Source: Candidatus Nomurabacteria bacterium (GTDB lineage: Bacteria > Patescibacteriota > Minisyncoccia > Phycocordibacterales > UBA9973). Taken from it: a stretch of DNA of 64,000 nucleotides. Both the position numbers and the translations under genes were made by a program. Positions within the stretch are counted from its first letter, which is position 1. Every line of letters begins with the position of its first letter. Under the pieces are notes generated by a model that was not told where the DNA came from, did no database searches, and saw nothing but the letters and a program-made list of their open reading frames with translations. Below, one piece after another: positions 26,417-60,521 of the stretch. The stretch covers positions 174,710 to 238,709 of the forward strand of contig JAHFNS010000001.1 in assembly GCA_023267215.1 (NCBI GenBank), in the 5' to 3' direction.

Positions 26417-26974
26417 ATGTCAAGTAAAAATGAATATTCTAATAAAATACTTAAAATTCTAGGTGAAAAACCAGTTATTCCTGTAGACGAAGTAAAAAGA
26501 ATTCACCTCTCCCCAACCCCTCTCCTTGATAAGGAGAGGGGCGAAGGGGTGAGGTCTGGCTATGCCTTAAATCGTTCAATAAAAAACTTAATTGAATCTG
26601 GATGCGTAGATATGATTCAATCTGATAATCAAAATTATTTAAAATTAACCAAAAAAGGGAAAAATAAATTAAACTCTATTAAGCTTGAAGGAGATCAAGC
26701 TCTCGTATCTAACACTTGGGATGGTTTGTGGAGAATAATAATTTTAGATATTCCAGAAAACAGAAAAAACGAAAGAGAAAGTTTACGTTATCTTTTAAAG
26801 AAAGCCGATTTCGTTTGTATTAAGAATACTGTTTGGATATCACCTTTCCCTTATGAACATCTTTTTACAAATATCAAAAAAGATTTAGGTCTCGGTACTG
26901 AACTGATGATTATCGTCACCGACAAAATTGACGAGGAAACAAAACTCGCTTTTTTGAAAAGTCTCAAAAAATAG
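26417..26974 (+). CDS. Hypothetical protein: N-terminal winged-helix-like region plus a C-terminal Cas2/VapD-like segment
   Basis: 185 aa; WDGLWRIIILDIPENRKNERESLRYLLKKADFVCIKNTVWISPFP resembles the Cas2 beta1-alpha1 core pattern; contains an in-frame GC-rich element. Confidence 0.4.
   Translation: MSSKNEYSNKILKILGEKPVIPVDEVKRIHLSPTPLLDKERGEGVRSGYALNRSIKNLIESGCVDMIQSDNQNYLKLTKKGKNKLNSIKLEGDQALVSNTWDGLWRIIILDIPENRKNERESLRYLLKKADFVCIKNTVWISPFPYEHLFTNIKKDLGLGTELMIIVTDKIDEETKLAFLKSLKK
26504..26555. repeat. GC-rich nested palindromic element, family 1 (CACCTCTCCCCAA-CCCCTCTCCTTGATAAGGAGAGGGG-CGAAGGGGTGAGGT), in frame
   Basis: Inner perfect 11-bp stem plus outer complementary arms; encodes LSPTPLLDKERGEGV. 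Confidence 0.65.
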
Positions 26975-27000
26975 GAAATTTAAAAAATTTTAAGAGTCGT

Positions 27001-27045
27001 GTTGGTCCCCTGTCCTCTTGACTCCGAGGGCGAAGGCTCAAGAAA
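27001..27045. repeat. Degenerate GC-rich element (...GAGGGCGAAGGCTCAAG), intergenic
   Basis: Shares GAGGGCGAAGG with the 26504 copy; GC island in an AT-rich spacer. Confidence 0.35.
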
Positions 27046-27072
27046 TTTTTTGAAATTCCCTATTTTTTATTT

Positions 27073-28947
27073 TTAAATTCTATTTTTAAATCCTCCAGCT
27101 TGTAGATCCCAAAGTTTTTTGTAAACTCCATCTTGTTTATTTGAGAGTTCGTCGTGATTTCCATCTTCCACAATTTTTCCTTTTTCTAAAACAATAATCC
27201 GATCCATCTGTCTTATCGTAGAAAGTCTGTGAGCAATTACGATTGTTGTCTTCCCTTTTATAAGTTTAACAAGAGCATCTTGGATTAAGGATTCAGAGTG
27301 AGAGTCAAGTGAAGATGTCGCTTCGTCTAATGTGAGTATTGGAGCATTTTTGAGAATTGCTCGAGCAATAGCCACGCGTTGACGTTCTCCCCCAGAAAGT
27401 TTGATTCCTCGTTCTCCTACATATGTTTCATATTTTTGTGGTAATTGATCTATAAAGTCATCACAATGAGCCATGTGTGCTGCTACTAATACTTCTTCGT
27501 CTGTCGCATCTCTCCTGCCATAACGAATATTCTCCATTAAAGTACGGTGAAAAAGCACAGGGTCTTGGGGAACGAAAGCAATTTGTTCGCGAAGATTTTC
27601 TTGAGAAATTTTACTTATATCTATTCCATCAATCATTATCTTGCCATCAGTTATATTAAATAATCTCATTAAAAGACGTACAAAAGTTGTTTTACCAGAG
27701 CCAGAAGAACCAACAATAGCTATCTTCTGTCCGGCAGGTATAGTCAAAGAAAAATCATCTAATACTTTACTATTGTTATTTTTATAAATATAAGTCACTT
27801 TATCAAAAACAACTTCTCCCTTCGGATATAAAGCTACCGGCAAAACTTTTATATTTTTTGCAACTTCTACTCCATTATCAATTATTTCATAAGGTGTGTC
27901 AAAAATTAATGCCATTTCTTGAGCGTTAGAAAAACTGTCATAGTAAGTTCTAATGATTCCAGCAAAACCCCATAAACTATCACCGAGACGGACAAAATAA
28001 GTTTGTAATAATATCATTACAGGTAAAGTGATAAGAGAGATTTGCCAATCACTAATAGCTACCCAAAAAATAATAAATTCAGTAATAACTAAATAAAAAC
28101 TTTGAACAAGAGTGAGCCCTTCCCACAAGTACCAATTGAAAATAGTTGCTTTTTGTTGTTCTTCAATCACTTCCCCTGTACGCTTCCTTTCGTATTGAGT
28201 TCCCGTAAAAAATTGTATCGAAGAATGGTTTCCAATAGCGTCAGAAACAACCCCATTGGTTTTACTGTCGGCAATAGAAGCTAAAACATCATACTTGAGT
28301 TTGTATCGAGTGTAAATAAAAGCTGTTAACAAAAATACAAGACAAAAAATACCTAAAATATAAGCATATTTAGGAAATAAGGTATAAATAGCTATGACTG
28401 TACCAACACTACGAATAAGAAGAGGTAATGCATTAGCAGCCATTTGATCTGTTAACCTTTCAAACGCATTAGAATATTTATTTATTTTTTGAGTTAATGA
28501 TCCAGTAAAACTATTCGCAAAAAAAGAATGCGAATGTCCAATCATATAAGAAAAAGCTTGTTCACGTAATCCTGCTTTTACTTTTGATTCAAAATAAGCC
28601 AAACAAAATCCTGAAATTCTACGCATGGCCCAAGCAGATAAATTTAATATAAAAATAAAGATTATTATAGATTTAGCAATTGAGACAATTGAAAAATTGT
28701 TAACGCTTAAAACATCCCATAATTTCAAATATTGAAGTGGTATATAAACACTTAGAGCCGAAAAAAGTGTAGTCAAAATGATAACAGAAAAAAAAGAAAT
28801 CTTGTATTTCCTTATAACTTGCCAATAATATTTAAGCACCAACTTAAGGCGCAAATTTGAATAATCCTTTTCTTTTTCCATATAAAGCCAAAAAATAAGG
28901 CATTTCTGCCTTGTTTTTACTATACCATAAAAAATATAAATCACCAA
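27073..28947 (-). CDS. ABC exporter, fused permease/ATPase (MsbA-like type I)
   Basis: 624 aa; six-TM domain; Walker A GSSGSGKTT; ABC signature LSGGERQRVAIARA; Walker B ILTLDEATS; true start may be the internal Met at about 28881. Confidence 0.9.
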   Translation of the reverse strand: MVIYIFYGIVKTRQKCLIFWLYMEKEKDYSNLRLKLVLKYYWQVIRKYKISFFSVIILTTLFSALSVYIPLQYLKLWDVLSVNNFSIVSIAKSIIIFIFILNLSAWAMRRISGFCLAYFESKVKAGLREQAFSYMIGHSHSFFANSFTGSLTQKINKYSNAFERLTDQMAANALPLLIRSVGTVIAIYTLFPKYAYILGIFCLVFLLTAFIYTRYKLKYDVLASIADSKTNGVVSDAIGNHSSIQFFTGTQYERKRTGEVIEEQQKATIFNWYLWEGLTLVQSFYLVITEFIIFWVAISDWQISLITLPVMILLQTYFVRLGDSLWGFAGIIRTYYDSFSNAQEMALIFDTPYEIIDNGVEVAKNIKVLPVALYPKGEVVFDKVTYIYKNNNSKVLDDFSLTIPAGQKIAIVGSSGSGKTTFVRLLMRLFNITDGKIMIDGIDISKISQENLREQIAFVPQDPVLFHRTLMENIRYGRRDATDEEVLVAAHMAHCDDFIDQLPQKYETYVGERGIKLSGGERQRVAIARAILKNAPILTLDEATSSLDSHSESLIQDALVKLIKGKTTIVIAHRLSTIRQMDRIIVLEKGKIVEDGNHDELSNKQDGVYKKLWDLQAGGFKNRI

Positions 28948-30840: not shown

Positions 30841-32622
30841 TCATACAAATTCAGCTTGATAACATTTCTCACAATATACTATTTCCTTCCTTTCGTCACT
30901 TATAGCTGTCTCAAATTCATTCTGGCAAGGACTATTATCATGTGTATGTTTTATGGTATTTTTATATACACCATCTTTTGATTCTACACCATTACACATA
31001 CATTTTCTATGCCATAATTTCGGTGGATTTTTCTTTTTTGTACGTTGTATGTATCTACAATTAGGACATAAATGCGGTAAGGTTATATTTATTTGTCTGT
31101 GAAATTGTAGCTCATTAGGCAATATACGGAAAGCCTCTGTACATTGTTCATTACATTCTCCTTTATGTTCACATTCTATTACTTCGTTTAAAATCGAATC
31201 TTCTACATCTTTAATATCATCTGGTAAATCTTCAGCTTTTAAAGTAACTCTATAATTTCTTTCTTTTTCTTCATGCCATTTAAATCCTTTTTCTAGAGCT
31301 TCTTCTTTACTTAAAGGAAAATATTTATGAGCCCATGTTTCATTGTAAGAGAATAAAGAAAGATCACTCGGAAAATGCTCCCCATATTTATATATCTTTC
31401 CACAACTATCTATATGTGGCATATCCATCATATGCTGTTTGATTTTAGGAATTAATTCCTCATATTCCTCTTTAGTATATTGTTTATTTAAAATGCAATA
31501 TTTTTTATTTTTTAGATTTGTGCAACCAAAACAATTTGAACAATTATATATTTTATTAGAATATTCAATATCTTTAGAGTCATAACAGGCACGGCTAAAA
31601 AAACAACGTTGAGAATGCATCCCTCCGGTATTTTCATAATAAAGTTCTGTATTACCACCACATAAAATGGCATCATAACTATCTTTCATTAAAAGACCAG
31701 CCATAAAAATAAACTTGCTGTTTTCAACCCCCATACGTGTAGCAAAACAAAATTGACAATTTTTAGTATTTCTAAGATCGTCCCCAGTTACATTTACAGA
31801 ATTAGTTATTAAAGCAAATCGTCTTGGAATTTTATAATAAAAATCCCAGAATTTTTCTTCTATTTTTTTTAAAGTACCATAACTACTTAAATTCCAATTT
31901 TTGATTTCTTTTTCATATTCTTCTTTTGTATATTTCTTGTTAAAGATACAATATTTTTGATTTCTCAAATTTACACAACCAAAACAGTTCGAACATCCAA
32001 TACAATTTAAAAGAAATGCGGAATCCATACATTCATCTGAAAAATAAACAAATTTAGTGTTATAAACCCCATTTGAGTCTAAAGTTTCATATATGTGGTC
32101 ACCATTTATTATAAAATCAGAATCCATAGAATCACGAACAAAACCAGGGGTTTGACAGTTATAACAATTAATTGATTCATAGCCATCAAATGTCAGCATG
32201 CAATTTTTACAACGGATATTCCCATTACAATAACCAAGATCAGAGGAGTTTTTAGATCCCGTCGCTTGATTTGGTACAACTTTTTGCAATTCATAAAATT
32301 GTTCTAAAAATGGCTTTGAAAAATCATATTCCCTACCATATTCTATTCCATCCCAAGAATCTCCATGCCAACATGAAATACAATAAACCTTAAATGGAGA
32401 ATTTTCATTATAAATACTTATAATTTCTTTATTACAATTTTCACATTTATCCTTATAGAGAGATCTATCTTCACGATAAGCAAGACGTCTTATCATTCTA
32501 CACTCCGGACACCAAGTCGGTGAAGGTACTTTTATCTTTTCATAAAAATTAAAATCTTCCGGCTCTATTGTGAAGTCTTTTTTGCAATTCTGACATATTC
32601 TTTTTTCTTGTTTATATTCCAT
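30841..32622 (-). CDS. Cysteine-rich repeat protein, paralog 5
   Basis: 593 aa; same N terminus as paralog 4; C-terminal CEHKGECNEQCTEAFRILPNELQFHRQINITLPHLCPNCR with a 20-aa insertion. Confidence 0.8.
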   Translation of the reverse strand: MEYKQEKRICQNCKKDFTIEPEDFNFYEKIKVPSPTWCPECRMIRRLAYREDRSLYKDKCENCNKEIISIYNENSPFKVYCISCWHGDSWDGIEYGREYDFSKPFLEQFYELQKVVPNQATGSKNSSDLGYCNGNIRCKNCMLTFDGYESINCYNCQTPGFVRDSMDSDFIINGDHIYETLDSNGVYNTKFVYFSDECMDSAFLLNCIGCSNCFGCVNLRNQKYCIFNKKYTKEEYEKEIKNWNLSSYGTLKKIEEKFWDFYYKIPRRFALITNSVNVTGDDLRNTKNCQFCFATRMGVENSKFIFMAGLLMKDSYDAILCGGNTELYYENTGGMHSQRCFFSRACYDSKDIEYSNKIYNCSNCFGCTNLKNKKYCILNKQYTKEEYEELIPKIKQHMMDMPHIDSCGKIYKYGEHFPSDLSLFSYNETWAHKYFPLSKEEALEKGFKWHEEKERNYRVTLKAEDLPDDIKDVEDSILNEVIECEHKGECNEQCTEAFRILPNELQFHRQINITLPHLCPNCRYIQRTKKKNPPKLWHRKCMCNGVESKDGVYKNTIKHTHDNSPCQNEFETAISDERKEIVYCEKCYQAEFV

Positions 32623-32664
32623 AATCCAGATTCCCCCATATACGCCATGGCTGATATGAGGGAA

Positions 32665-34335
32665 TTAATTGATATTTTGTTTATAACACTCTTCGCAGGC
32701 TATTTTTTGATATCCCCATTCTGGTAAATAATATGCTTCTATATCCTTTTTACAATAAATACATTTGTATGGATATACTTGCAATACCATCAAATCTTTC
32801 AAGATATTTTTTATTCTCACATCAAAATGTAATCTCGGAAGTGGAATATTATTTTCTTTATAAAAAATAAGTTCATTTTTTGCAATATTAAAACGCCATC
32901 CTGTCTCCGGGCAAATGAGTGCTTGGGTAACTATCGTATCTTCTACATCTTTAATATCATCTGGTAATTGATTTGTCGGCATACCTTCTACATTATTTTC
33001 AACAACATCTTCCCAGTAACCCCCAAGTTTTAAAATATCCTCTTTTTTCGTATCAGGAAAATATAAAAATGCACTGGAAAAATTGAAAGGTCCAGCGCTC
33101 ATAGAATAAGGTAAAAACTTTCCATATTCTTCTCTTTTCTTCATATCAGAAATAATTTTATTTTTTAATTCTTCATACTGTTCTTTAGTATATTGTTTAT
33201 TTAAAATACAATATTTCTTCTTCTTTAAGCCAACACAACCAAAACAATATTCACATTCAATACATAGATCTAAATATTCAGAATATCTAGATGAAGACCA
33301 GTTAGAGTACTTGAGTGCATAATTCTTATCACAACAACTACAATTACCAGATAATTCTGAATACCAACAACCATTAGCATCAATATCGGATTTTTTTCTC
33401 ATTCCTCGAATACAATTCGAGCAATCCTCAGATTCATTTATTGTATTACAATTATGACAATTTTTTACATCTAGTAGATAATCGCCATCAGAACCATAAG
33501 CTCTCATATTAAAGTTTTCTCTATGGACTACTTCTTTTTGAACAATTTCATCAAAATGTCTCTTATAATCTTGTATTGATTCATACGAGCCGAGTTTGAA
33601 TAATTTTAATTTTTCCAAATATTCTTCCCTTTTATATTGAATATTTTCTATACAATATGATTTTCCCCTTAAATTCCAACACATAAAACAATTCTGGCAA
33701 TTGCGACAATCATACAAGAAATAGGAATCTATGCAATCGCGGGAATGTTTAGAGAAAAAAAGTCTATAAGAATGGTGACATTCTGAAATTTCATAGCATT
33801 TTTCACAATCAAAACATATTGTTGCGTCCAGGGAATTTTTAACTTTTATGTTTCTATATGAATAGAATAAATCTTCACATTCTTCCATAGAACGAGATAA
33901 GTAACAATTTTTAGAATTCCATACATCATCACACCAATCACAGCCAGTATTTTTTTTACCGTTCTGATGAGGATGAGGGACTTTTTCTTGAAGCTCTTGA
34001 AGTTGTTCAAAAAATGATTTATTTTCATCATAATCTTGACCGTAATCCATAGCATCCCATTTGTCGCTATACCATTCGGAAGATGTATAGATTGGATAAC
34101 GACTTTTTTCCGGTAATACTGTGATCAAGCTTTCACCTGAGAGGTCAGACTTGCCTTTTCTAAATTTTCCAAACATCCAAAAAGATAAATGTATCTTTAC
34201 ACGACAGAAAAAACATATGGTTGGTAATTCTATGCCAACTTTTTCATATAAAGAAAGTTCCCCCTCTGTTATGGTAAATAGATTTAGACAGTGCTCACAA
34301 GTTTTACTTTGCGTTTTCATTGTACTCAAAAACAT
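32665..34335 (-). CDS. Cysteine-rich repeat protein, paralog 6 (most divergent)
   Basis: 556 aa; retains the CxxCxxCF(G/M)CxxL plus KKKYCILNKQYTKEQYEEL modules; N and C termini diverged; start overlaps the grpE stop. Confidence 0.7.
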   Translation of the reverse strand: MFLSTMKTQSKTCEHCLNLFTITEGELSLYEKVGIELPTICFFCRVKIHLSFWMFGKFRKGKSDLSGESLITVLPEKSRYPIYTSSEWYSDKWDAMDYGQDYDENKSFFEQLQELQEKVPHPHQNGKKNTGCDWCDDVWNSKNCYLSRSMEECEDLFYSYRNIKVKNSLDATICFDCEKCYEISECHHSYRLFFSKHSRDCIDSYFLYDCRNCQNCFMCWNLRGKSYCIENIQYKREEYLEKLKLFKLGSYESIQDYKRHFDEIVQKEVVHRENFNMRAYGSDGDYLLDVKNCHNCNTINESEDCSNCIRGMRKKSDIDANGCWYSELSGNCSCCDKNYALKYSNWSSSRYSEYLDLCIECEYCFGCVGLKKKKYCILNKQYTKEQYEELKNKIISDMKKREEYGKFLPYSMSAGPFNFSSAFLYFPDTKKEDILKLGGYWEDVVENNVEGMPTNQLPDDIKDVEDTIVTQALICPETGWRFNIAKNELIFYKENNIPLPRLHFDVRIKNILKDLMVLQVYPYKCIYCKKDIEAYYLPEWGYQKIACEECYKQNIN

Positions 34336-34900
34336 TCACTCGGGCGGCACGAATCACACGGTCGCCAAGTTTATAACCCTTTTGAATAACTTCAGATATT
34401 TTATGATTATCTTCTTTTTTTTCTGTCGGCGTCATATCTATAGATTGATGAATATTTGGATCAAAATTTTCTCCAACTTCTCCTATTTCTTTCACATTAT
34501 ATTCTTCAAAAATTGTGTTCAATTGAGCATGAATATATTCCACTCCTTTTCTCCAACTTTCATCCACTTTCTCCCAAGCTTCACGATTAGCAAAAGCCAT
34601 ATTAAAACTATCTAAAACACTTAAAAATCTAGTTAGAATTCTCTCACGCATAGATTCTGAAAAATTGGCTTTCCTTTCTTCTTCTTGTTTTTTATAATTT
34701 ATAAAATCTGCTCGCTCTTTCTGCCAACCTGTCAGATATTCTTCTTTTTCAGCTTTACACGTCTTCAAATCGGCCCTTAGTTTCTTAAGAGTCTTTTTTA
34801 GATCTTCTTCACCATCTTCATTGAATTCAAACTCCAAAACTTCTGCCTCTGGTTCAGATTCTTTTGAGATTTCTTTATTTTCTTCTTCTGCCATAAGCAT
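34304..34900 (-). CDS. grpE: Nucleotide exchange factor GrpE
   Basis: 198 aa; GWQKERADFINYKKQ and FDPNIHQSI conserved GrpE blocks. Confidence 0.85.
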   Translation of the reverse strand: MLMAEEENKEISKESEPEAEVLEFEFNEDGEEDLKKTLKKLRADLKTCKAEKEEYLTGWQKERADFINYKKQEEERKANFSESMRERILTRFLSVLDSFNMAFANREAWEKVDESWRKGVEYIHAQLNTIFEEYNVKEIGEVGENFDPNIHQSIDMTPTEKKEDNHKISEVIQKGYKLGDRVIRAARVNVFEYNENAK

Positions 34901-34927
34901 ATATTAGCATATCTTTTAAAAAAGATA

Positions 34928-35012
34928 AAATAATACTTTTTTCGACATACGCTTCAAAAAGATACTTAACGATATCAGGTTCGAGTGCGAGCCGTTAAAA
35001 AGTGTTATTTTA
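34928..35012. repeat. ~85-nt intergenic element, copy A (second copy at 48312..48396)
   Basis: About 85% identical to copy B: ACTTTTTTCGACATACGCT...AGATACTTAA.GA..TCAGGTTCG.GTGCGAG.CG..AAAAAGT. On the minus strand it contains sigma-70-like TTGAAG-N16-TATTAT ahead of grpE. Confidence 0.55.
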
Positions 35013-35018
35013 TATTTT

Positions 35019-35444
35019 TTATCTCTTAGACCACTGAGGTGCCTTTCTTGCCTTTTTGAGGCCGAATTTTCTACGTTCTTTTGCACGAGGGTCACGTTTT
35101 AAATATCCTAAATCTTTCAAATTGTGTCGTAATTCTCCATCAAATAAAACCAAGGCTCTAGAGAGACCATGTCGTACAGCTTCTGCTTGTGAATGAATCC
35201 CCCCACCTAGAACTTTTGCTACAACTTTCCATTTTAAATTATTCTTTTCTTTATCTTCAATCCCTTTCATAAGCGGATCCCAAATTAAGCGACGTTGTTC
35301 TTCAGTTCTAAAATATTCCTTGGAATCTTTATCATTAACAACAAAACTAGATTTAGAGGCTTCAAAAATACGCACTCTAGCTGTTGAAGTTTTTCTTCTA
35401 CCTATTGCCTCAATATATTTTTCTTTTGATATTTCTTTTATCAT
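35019..35444 (-). CDS. rpsI: 30S ribosomal protein S9
   Basis: 141 aa; C-terminal RRKFGLKKARKAPQWSKR. Confidence 0.9.
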   Translation of the reverse strand: MIKEISKEKYIEAIGRRKTSTARVRIFEASKSSFVVNDKDSKEYFRTEEQRRLIWDPLMKGIEDKEKNNLKWKVVAKVLGGGIHSQAEAVRHGLSRALVLFDGELRHNLKDLGYLKRDPRAKERRKFGLKKARKAPQWSKR

Positions 35445-45238: not shown

Positions 45239-45727
45239 TTATCTTTCTTTATTTAAATTTTCATCAGAAATTCTTCTAATTGGTTTTTCAAGAATATTAA
45301 GAAAAATAAAAATCAAAAGTACTAAAATAGTTGATATAATTGCAAGATTAAAAAGTCCGAATCCAGCAGCCATACCAATGCCTGCAGTCACCCAAAGTCC
45401 ACCAGCGGTCGTAAGCCCCCTTGTACGAGAATCTCTGAACATTATCATACCAGCGCCAAGAAAGCCGATACCCACAATAATATTAGAAGCTATCATTACA
45501 GGATTAAAACCTGGTGTATTTATATATTTTTCTCCCATAGTCTCAGAAATCATTATAAAAAGAGCTGCTCCCATAGAAACAAGGGCATGAGTTTTCATTC
45601 CCGCTTCTTTATGTACCAAAAGACGTTCAACACCAATAAGCATTCCTAAAACTATCGCTACTATTAATTTTAAAAAAATATCACTATTTTGTATAAAAAA
45701 TTGTTCCATATAATAATCATACAACAA
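45239..45727 (-). CDS. MgtC/SapB-family membrane protein
   Basis: 162 aa; LIVAIVLGMLIGVERLLVHKEAGMKTHALVSMGAALFIM MgtC signature. Confidence 0.75.
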   Translation of the reverse strand: MLYDYYMEQFFIQNSDIFLKLIVAIVLGMLIGVERLLVHKEAGMKTHALVSMGAALFIMISETMGEKYINTPGFNPVMIASNIIVGIGFLGAGMIMFRDSRTRGLTTAGGLWVTAGIGMAAGFGLFNLAIISTILVLLIFIFLNILEKPIRRISDENLNKER

Positions 45728-46910
45728 TTCCTCCGCCTAAACAAACATCTTTATCATATATGACACAAGATTGCCCAGAGGCCACCAATATAGGTTTTTT
45801 AAATATAACCTCTGCGGAAGCCTTGCTTCCGCAAATTACATTACAGGTCAAAAATTCACTATGATAACGAATTTGAGCTGTGTAAGTTTTATCTTGTTTA
45901 GGAGTAGTAAAGATCCAATTTATATTACTTATTTTAATTTCTTCCCCTCCTTGATGAGGAGGGGTGCCCTTTAGGGTGGGGTGGTGCTTTTTAGAATTAC
46001 CACCCCCTGCCCCCTCCTCCACGAGGAGGGGGTTAAGATTTTTGTCTTGCGACACATATAAAATATTTTTCTTTATATCTTTACCAACTATATAATAGGC
46101 TCCATCATTAGGACTTTTTTTAATAATAGTAAAACCATGACGTTCTCCTAAAGTATGGAAAACTACTCCATCGTGATATCCAATTTCTTCTCCTTTTTCA
46201 TTCCCCGCCTCTGACGGGGCAAGCAAAACTTTTCCCTTTTTTTCTTTAATATAATGTTTCAAAAAATCTTTCAAATCTACAGCCCCTAGAAAGCAAATAC
46301 CCTGGCTATCTTTTTTAAGAGCGACTGGCAATTTGAATTTTTTAGCAAGCTTGCGGACTTCTGTTTTTTTTAGATGACCTATAGGAAATAAAATTCTACT
46401 TAATTGCTCTTGCTTCAATGTCCACAAAAAATATGATTGATCTTTTGAAGGGTCAATGCCTTTTCTTAAATTTTTGGAAAAAGTCGGCCCTTTTTGAATT
46501 CTTAAGGGCCGGCCTTCTCCAAAAATTTGTGCATAATGCCCTGTTGCGATGTAGTCAGCTCCCATAGCAATTGCTTTTTTAAGAAAAGCCCCAAATTTCA
46601 CTTCTTTATTACACATCACATCAGGATTCGGCGTTCTCCCTCTCTTATATTCGGCAATCATATAGTCTGCAACTTCTTTTTTATACACGTCACTCAAATC
46701 AAAAGTAAGAAATGGAATATCCAAAAAAGCTGCGACGCGCATAGCGTCCAGGCGTTCTTCTTCTTCATTACATTCCAAGAAATCCGGATGCCAAGTACGT
46801 ATAAAAACCCCGACTACGTCATAGCCTTGTTTTTTTAATAATGCTGCACTTACAGCAGAATCAACACCACCAGATAAACCAACAAATACTACTTTTTTAT
46901 TCTTTTTCAT
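45717..46910 (-). CDS. mnmA: tRNA-specific 2-thiouridylase MnmA
   Basis: 397 aa; PP-loop VGLSGGVDSAVSA; conserved catalytic Cys; carries an ~85-nt GC-rich in-frame insertion encoding EEGAGGGNSKKHHPTLKGTPPHQGGEE. Confidence 0.85.
   Translation of the reverse strand: MKKNKKVVFVGLSGGVDSAVSAALLKKQGYDVVGVFIRTWHPDFLECNEEEERLDAMRVAAFLDIPFLTFDLSDVYKKEVADYMIAEYKRGRTPNPDVMCNKEVKFGAFLKKAIAMGADYIATGHYAQIFGEGRPLRIQKGPTFSKNLRKGIDPSKDQSYFLWTLKQEQLSRILFPIGHLKKTEVRKLAKKFKLPVALKKDSQGICFLGAVDLKDFLKHYIKEKKGKVLLAPSEAGNEKGEEIGYHDGVVFHTLGERHGFTIIKKSPNDGAYYIVGKDIKKNILYVSQDKNLNPLLVEEGAGGGNSKKHHPTLKGTPPHQGGEEIKISNINWIFTTPKQDKTYTAQIRYHSEFLTCNVICGSKASAEVIFKKPILVASGQSCVIYDKDVCLGGGIVV
45944..46032. repeat. Composite GC-rich palindromic element (CCCCTCCTTGATGAGGAGGGG ... 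GGTGG..CCACC ... CCCCCTCCTCCACGAGGAGGGGG), in frame inside mnmA
   Basis: Two hairpins related to the family 1 core plus a third stem; strongly GC-rich against the surrounding coding sequence. Confidence 0.6.
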
Positions 46911-47766: not shown

Positions 47767-48294
47767 TTACAGTTTCATTAGCTTTTTGTAAAGCTCATAT
47801 GTCGCATAAGCGTCTGATAAGGCACTATGGGGACGTTCATTTTTTATATCAAAAAGCTTGCACATATCACGCAAAGAAAAATGTTTGAAATTTGGTTTTT
47901 TGTGAAATTTCGCCCAAGCAATAGAGATAGTATCTAATTTATGGTAATGCATGGTATTTTTCCATTTATTTTTAGCAAAAGCATATTCCAAAAATCCATA
48001 ATCAAAAGAAACGTTTTGCCCAACCATAATACAATCTTTTACTTTTTTGGCTAAAATCTGTATCGCCTCTTCTAAATTAGAAGCTTGATTCCAATCTTTT
48101 TTATTATAATGATTTATTTTTAAAGCCACAGGGTCTGCGTTTTTTATATGTTTTGGTTTTATTTTTAATTCAAATTTCTCAATAACTCTGAGTTTTGGTG
48201 TTGTTATCACGCAACCAATCTCAATAATTTCATGTCTAGTGAAATCAAGTCCCGTAGTTTCTATATCTATAAAAGCTAAATTGTGTTTTCGCAT
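47767..48294 (-). CDS. DEDDh 3'-5' exonuclease (DnaQ/epsilon-like)
   Basis: 175 aa; Exo I FIDIETTGLD, Exo II GQNVSFDYGFL, Exo III HSALSDAYAT. Confidence 0.8.
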   Translation of the reverse strand: MRKHNLAFIDIETTGLDFTRHEIIEIGCVITTPKLRVIEKFELKIKPKHIKNADPVALKINHYNKKDWNQASNLEEAIQILAKKVKDCIMVGQNVSFDYGFLEYAFAKNKWKNTMHYHKLDTISIAWAKFHKKPNFKHFSLRDMCKLFDIKNERPHSALSDAYATYELYKKLMKL

Positions 48295-48311
48295 ATAATT
48301 TATAAAATCTA

Positions 48312-48396
48312 AAATAGTACTTTTTTCGACATACGCTACTGTAAGATACTTAATGACGTCAGGTTCGTGTGCGAGTCGTGAAAAAGTAGCTATTTT
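48312..48396. repeat. ~85-nt intergenic element, copy B
   Basis: See copy A at 34928..35012; located upstream of the exonuclease gene on the minus strand. Confidence 0.55.
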
Positions 48397-48406
48397 GAAT
48401 TTTATA

Positions 48407-49291
48407 TTAATTTTTTAAATATCTCTGTTTGTTTAATAAATGCTCTGCAAAAGTCTTCGCATAATGAATATTACCATCTTTATCATGTAAATAATAAAGA
48501 TAAGGTGAACTTACAGGATTTATAGCAGCTTCAATAGCTTTTATACCCGGATTAGAAATAGGATTTTCTGGTAATCCTTTCATTTTATAAGTGATAGAAG
48601 CGGCATCTACTTGTAAAGGCATACCCATAGCTATTCTTTTCCATAAAATTCCCGAGATAAATTTTCTATCTGTGTCTCCTTTTGATTCTTCTTCTATAAG
48701 AGAAGCCATAATAATGATATCTTTTTCAGATTTGCCAGATGACATAATCTGAGATTTTAAAATTGAGATTTTCTTTTCAAAATTATTACCCATAGCAGAC
48801 AAAACATCTTGTTCTCCATCAGTAGTTAAGAAAAAATATGTATCAGGAAAAAGATATCCCTCTTTTGCTTTTGCTAAAAAATTATCTTGATTAAAATTTG
48901 GTAATTTAGAAATAAAAGTTTTAGAAATATCGGATAAATTAAAACCTTCTGGAATCGTTACTTTTACTGGAGCCAAATGTCTTTCACCTTTTGCTAAACG
49001 TTTAGCAATTTCTATAACGGACAATTTATCTTCAAACAGATAGTCTCCAGAAATTATATGTTTCTCTCCGCCAAAAATTATAGCAAAAATCTCAAATAAG
49101 GCACGAGAATGAATAAGATTTTTTGTTTTTAAATCTTTAGAAATAGATCTTAAACTTGTTCCTTCTTTTATGCTTATAATCGTTCCCAAAGGAAAATCTT
49201 TTGGAGAATTAAAAAATAAAGAAAAAACTAATAAAAAAAGCACAATCAAACAAACTATATAGACAGTTTTAGATGAAGAAAAATTTAACAT
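48407..49291 (-). CDS. mltG: Endolytic murein transglycosylase MltG (YceG-like)
   Basis: 294 aa; N-terminal TM segment; YLFPDTYFF and GILWKRIAMGMPLQVDA YceG motifs. Confidence 0.8.
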   Translation of the reverse strand: MLNFSSSKTVYIVCLIVLFLLVFSLFFNSPKDFPLGTIISIKEGTSLRSISKDLKTKNLIHSRALFEIFAIIFGGEKHIISGDYLFEDKLSVIEIAKRLAKGERHLAPVKVTIPEGFNLSDISKTFISKLPNFNQDNFLAKAKEGYLFPDTYFFLTTDGEQDVLSAMGNNFEKKISILKSQIMSSGKSEKDIIIMASLIEEESKGDTDRKFISGILWKRIAMGMPLQVDAASITYKMKGLPENPISNPGIKAIEAAINPVSSPYLYYLHDKDGNIHYAKTFAEHLLNKQRYLKN

Positions 49292-59276: not shown

Positions 59277-60521
59277 TCAATTATACCATTTTTTTAATTT
59301 TTGCAAAATCTGAGATAAGGCTTTAATTGTGTAATCTATATCAGATTTAGTTGTCTTAACTCCTAGAGAAAAACGTAAACCACCTATTTCAGTATTCTGT
59401 TCTGGACGGATAGCGTCTATAACATACGAACCTTCTTTACGAGAGCTTTCACAAGCACTTTTTGCTGAAGCCATTATTCCCTTCGCTGAAAGTTCTATCA
59501 CCAGAAGTTCACTCGGGATTTTTGGAAAAGTAATATTTATATTATTTGGTAATCTATTTTCTAAATCTCCGTTAATAATCATCCCCGTGTCAAGGGGCAT
59601 CCTTGACAGTTTATTAACAAAATAATCTCGCAAAATTGTTAAACGTTTATTTTCTTTTTCTTTATTTTTTTGTACAGATTTTAAAGCAGAAGAAAATTTA
59701 ATAATTGCTGGTAAATTCTCTGTCCCCGGACGCAAACCATTTTCTTGATCTCCCCCACCAAACATTGGCGAAAGCGGCACAGTTTTTCTCTTATAAAGCA
59801 CCCCGACCCTCCCTGACCCTTCTATTTTAGAACCAGAAATTGAAAGCAAGTCAACTCCCAATTTTTCTACATTTAAATCTAAATAATTTACTGCTTGCAC
59901 AGCGTCTATGTGAAATAGAGGAAAGGAAAACTCGTCAAAAATCTTTTTTCCAGGTCCTCGGTTCTCGGGGTCCCCTACCCCCGCCAGACCATGTAAAAAA
60001 GTTTTTTGCCGAGTTTTCCTGCAATACCTAATTTCTTTTGCAATTTCTTTTATAGGCTGAATAATACCAATTTCATTATTCGCATACATTACTGAAATAA
60101 GTACAGTATTTTTCTTTATTTCTTTTTTTATTTTTTTAGGATCTATTATTCCATTTTTTTCAACTGACACTATCGATATTTCTGCAAATTTCCTTTTCTC
60201 TAACATTCTAAAAGTTTCGAGCACTGAAGGATGTTCTATGTTGGTGGTGATGATATGTGGCTTAGTGAAGGCCTTTCTTTCGCCTAAAAGCGAAGGAAAG
60301 ACTTTCGCTAATACGACTCCCTGAATCGCAAGATTGTTTGATTCTGTTCCTCCACTTGTAAAAATTATTTCTTCAGATCGACAATTCAAACTATTAGCGA
60401 CCTCCTTTCTCGCATTTTCAAGCCTTTTTTTAGCTTCTACTCCTTCTCTATGTACAGAACTAGAATTAGCAGAGAACCCTGCTGCATAATCTATGTATAT
60501 ATTTTTATTTGATTTAGCCAT
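59277..60521 (-). CDS. Cysteine desulfurase (class V aminotransferase, IscS/NifS-like)
   Basis: 414 aa; PLP-fold IIFTSGGTESNN, HIDAVQAV, SGSKIEG (Lys) motifs; contains a GC-rich in-frame insertion at 59951..59990. Confidence 0.8.
   Translation of the reverse strand: MAKSNKNIYIDYAAGFSANSSSVHREGVEAKKRLENARKEVANSLNCRSEEIIFTSGGTESNNLAIQGVVLAKVFPSLLGERKAFTKPHIITTNIEHPSVLETFRMLEKRKFAEISIVSVEKNGIIDPKKIKKEIKKNTVLISVMYANNEIGIIQPIKEIAKEIRYCRKTRQKTFLHGLAGVGDPENRGPGKKIFDEFSFPLFHIDAVQAVNYLDLNVEKLGVDLLSISGSKIEGSGRVGVLYKRKTVPLSPMFGGGDQENGLRPGTENLPAIIKFSSALKSVQKNKEKENKRLTILRDYFVNKLSRMPLDTGMIINGDLENRLPNNINITFPKIPSELLVIELSAKGIMASAKSACESSRKEGSYVIDAIRPEQNTEIGGLRFSLGVKTTKSDIDYTIKALSQILQKLKKWYN
59951..59990. repeat. 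GC-rich insertion inside the cysteine desulfurase CDS, in frame
   Basis: CAGGTCCTCGGTTCTCGGGGTCCCCTACCCCCGCCAGACC encodes GLAGVGDPENRGPG just before the conserved HIDAVQAV block. Confidence 0.45.

What the first reader, a model, noticed from the sequence alone, without database searches (positions are those of the whole stretch)
34928..35012. Duplicated ~85-nt intergenic element upstream of grpE and of the DEDDh exonuclease gene
34928..35012 and 48312..48396 are about 85% identical: AAT(A/G)(A/G)TACTTTTTTCGACATACGCT...AGATACTTAA.GA..TCAGGTTCG.GTGCGAG.CG..AAAAAGT. Both lie just upstream, on the minus strand, of a gene start (grpE and the 3'-5' exonuclease).

Read on the minus strand, each contains a sigma-70-like -35/-10 pair (TTGAAG-N16-TATTAT and TTACAG-N17-TACTAT). 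A conserved GC-rich segment (CGGCTCGCACTCGAACC) lies upstream of that; it has a half-CIRCE-like GCACTC but no full inverted repeat. The outer ACTTTTT / AAAAAGT arms are complementary.

This could be a shared promoter-operator module (a regulon marker), a small RNA gene, or a mobile promoter-bearing miniature element.
Basis: seen in the sequence. Interest (0 to 1): 0.5.

Follow-up and report, generated by a model that had tools for sequence, protein, structure and literature searches.

The report
Palindromic repeat element, also inserted inside genes
The duplicated 85-base stretch is two copies of a roughly 105-base palindromic repeat that is scattered through the genomes of these ultra-small (Nomurabacteria) bacteria. 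In relatives it even sits in-frame inside essential genes, so it looks like "selfish" DNA of the kind known from Rickettsia rather than a shared promoter or operator.

Summary
The repeat is real. Window 34917-35021 and 48301-48406 (minus strand) match at 87 of 105 positions, and there is no third copy in the window.

It is not a promoter-operator module. Each copy is a 105-106 nt palindrome made of 25-nt arms and an asymmetric 53-nt core. Each starts at or next to the stop codon of the upstream gene (rpsI, yceG).

I collected 113 distinct copies from related Candidatus Nomurabacteria/Paceibacterota genomes and metagenomes.
- **In genes:** 60 lie inside long ORFs. 57 of these are in one reading frame, encoding ..HGSHSNLNVVNExNIAYAEKS... 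Hosts are MnmA (two sites), LeuRS (two sites), TGT, a methyltransferase and a racemase.
- **Between genes:** 52 copies, almost always directly after a same-strand stop codon or between convergent genes.
- **Insertion polymorphism:** orthologous sites are filled in some species and empty in others.
- **Arms:** 95% Watson-Crick paired with many compensatory changes but no G·U excess, so complementarity is kept at the DNA level.
- **Concerted evolution:** copies within one genome resemble each other more than orthologous copies do.

grpE has its own conserved extended -10 box outside the element.

Best reading: a non-autonomous palindromic mobile element comparable to Rickettsia palindromic elements (RPEs), and not described for the candidate phyla radiation in the papers I searched. 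The two window copies probably also act as terminators.

The parts
34917..35021 (-). Copy A: complete palindromic element (105 nt) between rpsI and grpE
   Evidence: Covariance-model (CM) hit of 103 bits at 34912-35026. Inverted repeat I4. Palindrome extent. Folds at -22 kcal/mol, z = -3.9.
34997..35021 (-). Copy A 5' arm (A-rich). Its first three bases, 35021-35019, are the rpsI stop codon TAA.
   Evidence: 25 nt, 92% complementary to 34917-34941. The rpsI ORF ends at 35019.
34942..34996 (-). Copy A core: conserved, non-palindromic centre (..ACGGCTCGCACTCGAACCTGA..TTAAGTATC..GCGTATGTCG..), subtype T1
   Evidence: Alignments A2 and A9. Subtype table. T1 cores are 53 nt and all are intergenic.
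34917..34941 (-). Copy A 3' arm (U/T-rich), which could serve as the U-tract of a terminator
   Evidence: It occupies the place where relatives carry a short GC hairpin plus T-run terminator.
48301..48406 (-). Copy B: complete palindromic element (106 nt) between yceG/mltG (stop codon 48407-48409) and the RNase_T exonuclease (ATG at 48294)
   Evidence: CM hit of 112 bits at 48296-48411. Sequence. The same site is filled in L094, L097 and L068.
34901..34909 (-). Not part of the element: the conserved extended -10-like box TGCTAATAT, the likely real grpE promoter, 6 nt before the second ATG (34894)
   Evidence: TTTATGCTAATATA is kept in nearly all of about 34 relatives, with or without the element. 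P0002 and the relatives start at MAEEE.

Best explanation
The two stretches are copies of a small non-autonomous palindromic repeat element. It is MITE-like and, functionally, a counterpart of the Rickettsia palindromic elements (RPEs). It is spread through genomes of Candidatus Nomurabacteria/Paceibacterota.

**Anatomy (shown).** Each unit is about 105-107 bp. It has an asymmetric, conserved 53-54-nt core (CACGGCTCGCAC...TGA...GCGnnTnnCG) enclosed by arms of about 25 bp. The arm sequences differ between copies but stay Watson-Crick complementary.

**Behaviour (shown).**
- The element occupies many unrelated sites.
- Orthologous sites are filled in some species and empty in others.
- Copies within one genome are homogenised.
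- About half of the copies lie in-frame inside conserved genes, where one stop-free frame adds about 39 residues to a loop.
- The other half lie directly after stop codons.

**Mechanism (inferred).**
- It spreads as DNA through an unidentified enzyme that recognises the core plus the hairpin shape rather than a fixed terminal sequence.
- Arm complementarity is kept by a DNA-level process: hairpin-templated repair or conversion, or propagation from hairpin-competent masters.
- Inside genes, only insertions in the open frame survive.

**The two window copies (less certain).** They are the intergenic subtype, T1. They most likely do nothing specific for grpE or the exonuclease. They replace, and probably act as, the intrinsic terminators of rplM-rpsI and of yceG, with a long hairpin followed by a U-rich arm.
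For: **Family and structure**
- 9 copies were found first, then 109 metagenome stretches, giving 113 distinct copies.
- 94.8% of stem cells are paired, against 43-54% in the slid controls. 24 of 32 pairs show changes on both sides.
- The whole palindrome is 103-109 bp in most copies.

**In-frame coding copies**
- The first cases were in MnmA.
- 57 of 60 coding copies use one frame.
- Hosts are MnmA, LeuRS, TGT, a PF10672 methyltransferase and an Asp/Glu racemase.
- Frame +0 has no stops in 0/38 coding copies, against stops in 27/38 intergenic copies. Third-codon positions show no extra variability, so the peptide itself is not under selection.
- Among the 120 closest MnmA homologues, 80 have no copy, 31 have one and 9 have two.
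- In an AlphaFold model of a two-copy MnmA, both inserts are low-confidence loops between adjacent beta strands in an otherwise confident fold.

**Mobility and turnover**
- The mnmA-mgtC junction is a 7-nt spacer in the window, L012 and L014, but holds the element in L010.
- The rpsI-grpE spacer holds this element, a plain terminator, or other palindrome families, depending on the species.
- Core identity is 0.93 between sites within a genome, against 0.76 between genomes.

**DNA-level symmetry**
- G·U mismatches are not enriched over A·C: 83 vs 104, and 0.5-2.1% vs 1.6-4.2%.

**Terminator-like placement**
- In about 43 of 48 intergenic copies, the upstream same-strand ORF ends within -9 to +6 nt of the element.
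- 10 copies are between convergent genes and 2 between divergent genes.

**Known analogues**
- RPEs and other bacterial MITEs fused in frame to genes are described in PMC2229807 and PMC10969869.
Against: - No transposase or autonomous partner was identified.
- No clear target-site duplication could be defined. TA ends cannot be told apart from palindrome extension in this AT-rich DNA.
- The outer arms are the least conserved part. This is the opposite of classical MITEs, whose terminal repeats are what the transposase recognises.
- Compensatory changes occur even among copies at one orthologous site. That could mean selection for a hairpin with a host function.
- Intergenic copies show a strong orientation bias (26 sense vs 2 antisense in co-directional spacers). 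A purely selfish, symmetric palindrome does not predict this.
- The core is well conserved across species, which could reflect function rather than turnover.
- There are no transcript or protein data, so neither translation of the inserts nor terminator activity is demonstrated.
- The generic terminator scan does not call the element, because the stem is AT-rich and the loop is large.
Confidence: 0.75

Rival explanations
1. Host-selected structural element. The long hairpin is kept by selection because it works as a bidirectional intrinsic terminator or mRNA 3'-end stabiliser, as proposed for REP, ERIC or SPRITE. Mobility would be secondary or extinct. The coding copies would be accidents.
For: - Intergenic copies sit exactly at gene 3' ends and between convergent genes.
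- In the window and L003 the element stands where relatives have a canonical terminator.
- The stem is kept at 95% pairing, with compensatory changes even within orthologous sites.
- The fold is stable.
Against: - It does not explain 60 in-frame copies inside essential genes, where a terminator would be harmful.
- There is no G·U tolerance, which RNA-level selection would predict.
- It does not explain why an asymmetric 54-nt core is conserved, or why copies are homogenised within genomes.
Confidence: 0.12
2. A structured RNA that is transcribed and functional: an sRNA, a cis-regulatory leader, or an RNA-level intervening sequence that is excised from mRNAs.
For: - Strong covariation in a long stem with a conserved apical region.
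- Nearly all copies are in the sense orientation relative to transcription.
- The core is conserved at all three codon positions alike.
Against: - No Rfam family matches.
- G·U pairs are rare and not more common than A·C.
- Coding copies always keep one frame open and keep the downstream frame (0/38 with stops, against 27/38 intergenic). An excised element would not need this.
- No conserved promoter or terminator of its own.
- The apical region does not fold the same way in subtypes T1, T2 and T3.
Confidence: 0.07
3. One reading: a shared promoter-operator module that marks a heat-shock or other regulon and drives grpE and the exonuclease.
For: - Both window copies lie upstream of gene starts.
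- A 9/12 sigma-70-like match exists in copy A.
- GCACTC resembles half of a CIRCE arm.
Against: - The promoter match is at chance level and absent in copy B.
- There is no CIRCE in the window.
- The element is upstream of grpE in only 2 of about 34 related loci. All of those loci keep a separate conserved TGCTAATAT box next to the ATG.
- Half the copies are intragenic.
- Ten intergenic copies face no downstream gene start.
Confidence: 0.03
4. A protein-level module. The 39-residue peptide (..HGSHSNLNVVNE..) would be a functional insertion, for example an interaction loop shared by tRNA-handling enzymes. The DNA palindrome would be incidental.
For: Most hosts act on RNA: MnmA, LeuRS, TGT and an rRNA/tRNA-type methyltransferase. 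The peptide is recognisably conserved.
Against: - Sequence variation shows no codon periodicity, so there is no amino-acid-level purifying selection.
- The inserts are predicted to be disordered loops.
- Half the copies are non-coding and carry stops.
- At MnmA site 2 two genomes carry the element inverted, which gives an unrelated peptide.
- 80 of 120 close MnmA homologues lack the element.
Confidence: 0.03

Closest known systems
Rickettsia palindromic elements (RPE; Ogata et al. 2000, as summarised in PMC2229807 and PMC10969869)
   Same: - Size: 105-146 bp there, 105-107 bp here.
- A long stem formed by the two ends.
- Found both between genes and fused in frame inside conserved housekeeping genes, with the ORF preserved.
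- One usable reading frame.
- Inserts tolerated in loops.
- Several families occur in one small, reduced genome.
- No known transposase, and the target-site duplication is unclear.
   Different: - Unrelated lineage (candidate phyla radiation, not Alphaproteobacteria), and no sequence relationship was shown.
- Lower copy number: at least 5 on a 599-kb contig, against 44 in R. conorii.
- Here the asymmetric core is the conserved part, and the outer arms vary while staying complementary.
- Clear homogenisation of copies within a genome.
Correia/NEMIS elements of Neisseria and ERIC/IRU of enterobacteria (bacterial MITEs; PMC2229807)
   Same: - Palindromic units of about 100-150 bp with arms of about 25 bp.
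- Located in transcribed spacers at gene ends.
- Long RNA hairpins that can affect neighbouring transcripts.
- A shorter, ORF-compatible variant is found in genes and another variant only between genes (Correia 107 vs 155 bp). This parallels subtypes T2/T3 vs T1 here.
   Different: Those elements have conserved terminal inverted repeats and TA target duplications that tie them to IS families. Neither could be shown here. Promoter, IHF-site or RNase III functions are documented for them and untested here.
REP/BIME with RAYT, IS200/IS605 ends and integron attC sites (elements recognised as DNA hairpins)
   Same: Structure is conserved while the stem sequence varies. Complementarity is kept at the DNA level. 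Orientation is biased relative to gene or replication direction.
   Different: - REPs are 20-40 bp with a GTAG/CGTC tag.
- attC sites conserve their outer ends, not their centre.
- No Y1 transposase, RAYT or integrase was looked for or found near the copies.
- None of these is known for in-frame insertion into genes.
SPRITE and other terminator-like repeats
   Same: Repeated hairpin plus T-rich tail placed right after stop codons. Can stand in for an intrinsic terminator.
   Different: Much longer, AT-rich stem with a 54-nt conserved centre. Also occurs inside coding sequences.

Membership tests
Bacterial MITE (as defined in PMC2229807) | Small (about 100-200 bp) non-coding-size unit present in several copies at unrelated loci | tested here: met
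   105-107 bp. 113 distinct copies. At least 5 copies on one 599-kb contig.
Bacterial MITE (as defined in PMC2229807) | Terminal inverted repeats, and a transcript that folds into one long stem-loop | tested here: met
   25-nt arms at 92% complementarity. 94.8% of stem cells paired in 93 copies. However, the arm sequence is not conserved between sites.
Bacterial MITE (as defined in PMC2229807) | Target-site duplication (often TA) at the ends | tested here: inconclusive
   Many intergenic copies begin TA.. and end ..TA. TA is self-complementary and common in 32% GC DNA. No direct repeat was seen at the L010 filled site.
Bacterial MITE (as defined in PMC2229807) | Evidence of mobility: filled versus empty orthologous sites | tested here: met
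   The mnmA-mgtC junction, the rpsI-grpE spacer, and MnmA sites 1 and 2.
Bacterial MITE (as defined in PMC2229807) | A cognate IS or transposase sharing the ends | not tested
   No systematic transposase search of the host genomes was possible. No viral contig carries the core.
RPE-like protein-coding palindrome | In-frame insertion into conserved protein genes with the ORF and downstream frame preserved | tested here: met
   57 copies in frame +0 within MnmA, LeuRS, TGT, a methyltransferase and a racemase. 0/38 carry stops.
RPE-like protein-coding palindrome | Insertion points compatible with the protein fold (surface loops) | tested here: met
   AlphaFold model of MnmA P0126: both inserts are low-pLDDT loops between adjacent strands, and the rest of the fold is confident. 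This is a prediction only.
RPE-like protein-coding palindrome | The insert is actually translated | not testable with these tools
   Needs proteomics. Stop-codon avoidance supports it only indirectly.
RPE-like protein-coding palindrome | Sequence homology to a Rickettsia or Wolbachia RPE family | not tested
   No RPE sequences were compared. The resemblance claimed is one of kind, not of descent.
HrcA-CIRCE or other shared promoter-operator | Inverted repeat TTAGCACTC-N9-GAGTGCTAA, or an element conserved at a fixed distance upstream of regulon genes | tested here: not met
   0 CIRCE matches with up to 3 mismatches. The element is upstream of grpE in 2 of about 34 loci. Its position is tied to the upstream stop codon.
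Known RNA family (Rfam 15) or tRNA-like gene | Match to a covariance model or a tRNA scan | tested here: not met
   Nothing at gathering score, and only noise at E up to 10. ARAGORN finds no gene there.
Structured functional RNA (generic) | Strand-specific pairing signature: G·U tolerated, A·C purged | tested here: not met
   G·U 83 vs A·C 104. G·U 0.5-2.1% vs A·C 1.6-4.2% in each site group.
Intrinsic terminator | Stable hairpin followed by a U-tract directly after a stop codon | tested here: inconclusive
   Position and U-rich 3' arm fit. The consensus scan does not call it because the stem is AT-rich and the loop is large. No transcript data.

The most novel reading that the evidence does not exclude
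Candidate-phyla-radiation bacteria (Nomurabacteria/Paceibacterota) carry several families of protein-coding palindromic elements. This would be an independent second occurrence of the 'selfish DNA inside essential genes' phenomenon known from Rickettsia.

This family would be mobilised or maintained by a structure-recognising mechanism: conserved asymmetric core, fixed hairpin length, free but self-correcting arm sequence, strand-biased orientation. That differs from TIR-recognising MITE transposition and would point to an unrecognised hairpin-specific recombinase or repair pathway in these minimal genomes.
Probability: 0.3. Interest if true: 0.7.

Novelty: new member of a known kind. Interest (0 to 1): 0.5.

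Why it matters
**Annotation.** The repeat should not be read as a regulon marker. The real grpE promoter is probably the conserved box next to the start codon.

**Biology of CPR genomes.** These bacteria have tiny, streamlined genomes, and mobile DNA in them is poorly known. A palindromic element that sits in-frame in MnmA, LeuRS and TGT shows that such genomes tolerate, and keep homogenising, selfish insertions in core translation genes. Other palindrome families occupy the same hot spots.

**Comparison with Rickettsia.** The element gives a second, independent system for asking how protein-coding palindromes spread and whether they seed new protein loops.

**Practical uses.**
- It explains some of the unexplained insertions in CPR proteins.
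- It offers markers for strain typing.
- It warns gene callers about spurious small ORFs; P0121 and P0122 are examples.

Tried and rejected
- **Rfam:** gathering thresholds on the whole window and permissive E-values on both copies gave only noise.
- **tRNA/tmRNA scan:** nothing at the element, despite a GGTTCGAGT string on the plus strand.
- **CIRCE search:** no match.
- **Promoter reading:** at chance level.
- **Peptide search of the protein database with the insert-encoded peptide.** The second returned only two small spurious ORFs called in intergenic copies, so the host range had to come from DNA pattern scans instead.
- **Viral contigs:** no copy.
- **Target-site duplication:** sought from palindrome boundaries and one filled/empty pair, without a clear result.
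- **Hammerhead and other small ribozymes:** considered from the CUGA string and rejected, because the core motifs do not fit and there is no Rfam hit.
- **Intein or intron readings:** rejected on size (39 codons) and on strict stop-codon avoidance.
- **Host-flank identity** was computed without gaps and is only a rough lower bound. I do not rely on it.

Full report
**1. The observation**

Window 34928-35012 and 48312-48396 are clearly related. Identity is 80% ungapped. Over the full element it is 87 of 105 positions with one gap. The conserved 20-nt blocks occur exactly twice in the 64-kb window, against 0.00-0.01 expected. A filter-free covariance-model (CM) search finds no third copy.

All neighbouring genes are on the minus strand.
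- Copy A lies between rpsI (35019-35444) and grpE (34304-34900).
- Copy B lies between a YceG/MltG gene (48407-49291) and an RNase_T/DEDDh exonuclease (47767-48294).

GrpE homologues place the window in Candidatus Nomurabacteria/Paceibacterota, within the candidate phyla radiation (CPR). It is a 105/106-nt palindrome (34917-35021 and 48301-48406) with 25-nt arms at 92% complementarity around a 53-nt asymmetric centre. Copy A begins with the rpsI stop codon itself.

**2. What it is not**

- No Rfam family matches, at gathering score or at permissive E-values.
- No tRNA-like gene is called there.
- No CIRCE repeat occurs in the window.
The pair in copy B fails the scan.

**3. Relatives**

I fetched grpE loci from 49 genomes, about 34 of them Nomurabacteria-like. 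Profile and CM searches found the element upstream of grpE only in the window and in L003.

The other species have one of two things in the rpsI-grpE spacer: a short GC hairpin plus T-run terminator, or quite different long palindromes. Nearly all of them keep a box TTTATGCTAATATA 5-8 nt before the grpE ATG. That box is an extended -10 (TGnTAATAT) lying outside the element. It is the better candidate for the grpE promoter, and it would give a nearly leaderless mRNA (inference).

**4. The turning point**

In L006, L012, L014 (twice) and L034 the same element lies inside the mnmA coding sequence. The reading frame runs straight through it, and it is always in the same frame and orientation. It encodes ..HGSHSILNMxDRALVAN.. 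or ..HGSHSNLNVVNExNIAYAEKS...

**5. Census**

A pattern built from the invariant core positions found no copy in viral contigs and 109 stretches in metagenome contigs. Together with the genome loci this gives 113 distinct copies.

*Coding copies.* Sixty lie within ORFs of at least 150 residues.
- 57 are in frame +0 (CAC GGC TCG CAC..).
- Two are at MnmA site 2 with the core inverted.
- One is doubtful.
- The hosts are MnmA (after GHYAQ and after YVSQ), LeuRS (two sites), queuine tRNA-ribosyltransferase (TGT), a PF10672 SAM methyltransferase and an Asp/Glu racemase.
- That makes at least seven independent insertion sites, each shared by several species.
- Of the 120 closest MnmA homologues in the protein database, 80 have no copy, 31 have one and 9 have two.
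- In an AlphaFold model of a two-copy MnmA (mean pLDDT 81), both inserts are low-confidence coil loops joining adjacent beta strands.

*Intergenic copies.* There are 52.
- They start within -9 to +6 nt of the stop codon of a same-strand upstream ORF in about 43 of 48 scorable cases.
- 26 sit in co-directional spacers in sense orientation and 2 in antisense.
- 10 sit between convergent genes and 2 between divergent genes.
- So the element tracks gene 3' ends, not gene starts.

**6. Structure and evolution**

- **Pairing.** On 93 sense-strand copies, 94.8% of stem cells are standard pairs, against 43-54% when partners are slid. 24 of 32 pairs show changes on both sides, in 491 cells.
- **Within one site.** Even among copies at one orthologous site, 7-20 of the 32 pairs show two or more Watson-Crick types.
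- **No RNA signature.** G·U pairs are rare and not commoner than A·C: 83 vs 104, and 0.5-2.1% vs 1.6-4.2%. Complementarity is therefore Watson-Crick and strand-symmetric, a DNA-level property rather than sense-RNA selection.
- **Length.** Total palindrome length is nearly constant, with modes at 105 and 107 bp. The outer 10-14 nt differ between sites.
- **No selection on the peptide.** The core varies equally at all three codon positions, in coding and intergenic copies alike (position 3 is 0.24 bits, position 1 is 0.33). Coding copies nevertheless never carry a stop in frame +0 (0/38), against 27/38 intergenic copies. The only visible constraint from translation is "no stop".
- **Concerted evolution.** Copies at different sites in one genome share core variants (identity 0.93), while copies in different genomes share fewer (0.76). 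Some also share arm sequences, as in L095. This indicates recent intragenomic copying or gene conversion.
- **Subtypes.** Three core subtypes exist. T1 is the window type, with a 53-nt core. It has about 11 copies, all intergenic. T2 has 39 coding and 33 intergenic copies. T3 has 12 coding and 1 intergenic.
- **Filled and empty sites.** The mnmA-mgtC junction is a 7-nt spacer in the window, L012 and L014, and holds the element in L010. Other examples are the rpsI-grpE spacer and the two MnmA sites.

**7. Interpretation**

The element behaves like a small non-autonomous palindromic mobile element. Its closest described counterparts are the Rickettsia palindromic elements. These are 105-146 bp palindromes found between genes and fused in frame into conserved genes, with no known transposase (PMC2229807; PMC10969869).

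It also resembles Correia and ERIC elements, which sit in transcribed spacers and have ORF-compatible and intergenic-only variants. It differs from textbook MITEs in that the centre is conserved and the arms are free but self-complementary. That points to recognition of shape plus core, or to continual hairpin-templated correction. Both are inferences.

For the two window copies, the most economical reading is that they are intergenic insertions at the 3' ends of rpsI and yceG. They replace the usual terminator hairpin and probably terminate transcription themselves. This last step is plausible but unproven.

I found no description of such elements in CPR bacteria in the searchable literature. 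That is absence from that library, not proof of novelty.

**8. What remains unexplained**

- The strong sense-orientation bias of intergenic copies (26 vs 2).
- How arm complementarity is maintained.
- The identity of any mobilising enzyme.
- Whether there is a target-site duplication.

Noticed in passing
window 34901-34909 (minus strand); L003-L036 upstream of grpE: A conserved box TTTATGCTAATATA (extended -10-like TGCTAATAT) lies 5-8 nt before the grpE ATG in nearly all of about 34 Nomurabacteria relatives, whatever fills the spacer. It suggests a nearly leaderless grpE mRNA. It also suggests the true start is the second ATG (34894, MAEEE..), not 34900.
   Followed up: partly
L004/L009/L030, L006/L007/L027, L007/L011/L027, L008, L032 (rpsI-grpE spacers); L006 and L008 (mnmA-mgtC junction): The same short spacers hold at least four other unrelated long-palindrome families in different species. 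One is present in both orientations (L004 vs L030). These spacers are insertion hot spots, and the lineage carries several palindromic element families.
   Followed up: partly
window 46468-46528 and 45944-46031 (inside mnmA, 45717-46910, minus strand): The window's own MnmA lacks the studied element. It carries two other palindromic in-frame inserts (arms of 25 nt and 21 nt) at the very two loop sites where relatives carry the element. One encodes ..GGNSKKHHPTLKGTPPHQGGE...
   Followed up: partly
window 59919-60025 (inside ORF 59277-60521, minus strand): A 107-nt GC-richer palindrome (29-nt arms, 90% complementary) with the same overall size as the studied element but a different centre. It lies inside a 414-aa ORF and is probably another in-frame palindromic family.
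   Followed up: no
window 26960-27074: A 115-nt palindrome between convergent ORFs (26417-26974 on the plus strand, 27073-28947 on the minus strand). Its centre (..GAGTCGTGTTGGTCCCCTGTCCTCTTGACTCCGAGGGCGAAGGCTC..) is the reverse complement of the family seen in the rpsI-grpE spacers of L007, L011 and L027.
   Followed up: partly
L060 8085-8201 and L137 5903-6019: At MnmA site 2 the element is present in inverted orientation. The ORF is still open, and it encodes an unrelated peptide (..RHSQPKLGQSCSRWSASREK..). This is consistent with inversion of the core by recombination between the arms.
   Followed up: partly
window 30841-34335 (minus strand): grpE is followed not by dnaK but by two large ORFs (556 and 593 aa) with no Pfam match. 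Equivalents of 557 and 586 aa follow grpE in L003. In L012, dnaK lies about 4.6 kb downstream of grpE.
   Followed up: no
intergenic copies in L052-L160: Intergenic copies are almost always in the sense orientation of the flanking genes (26 vs 2 in co-directional spacers), although the hairpin is symmetric. This is unexplained. It might reflect strand-specific (replication-linked) insertion.
   Followed up: no
P0121, P0122 (metagenome gene calls): Public gene predictions include 36- and 58-aa 'proteins' (MLFHGSHSNLNVV..) that are simply the open frame of intergenic copies of the element. They are probably spurious genes.
   Followed up: partly
L075 9-2990: A 994-codon stop-free frame joins a serine-recombinase-like region (Resolvase/Recombinase/Zn-ribbon Pfam hits) to an MnmA carrying two copies of the element. 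I did not check whether this is one gene or two adjacent genes in the same frame.
   Followed up: no
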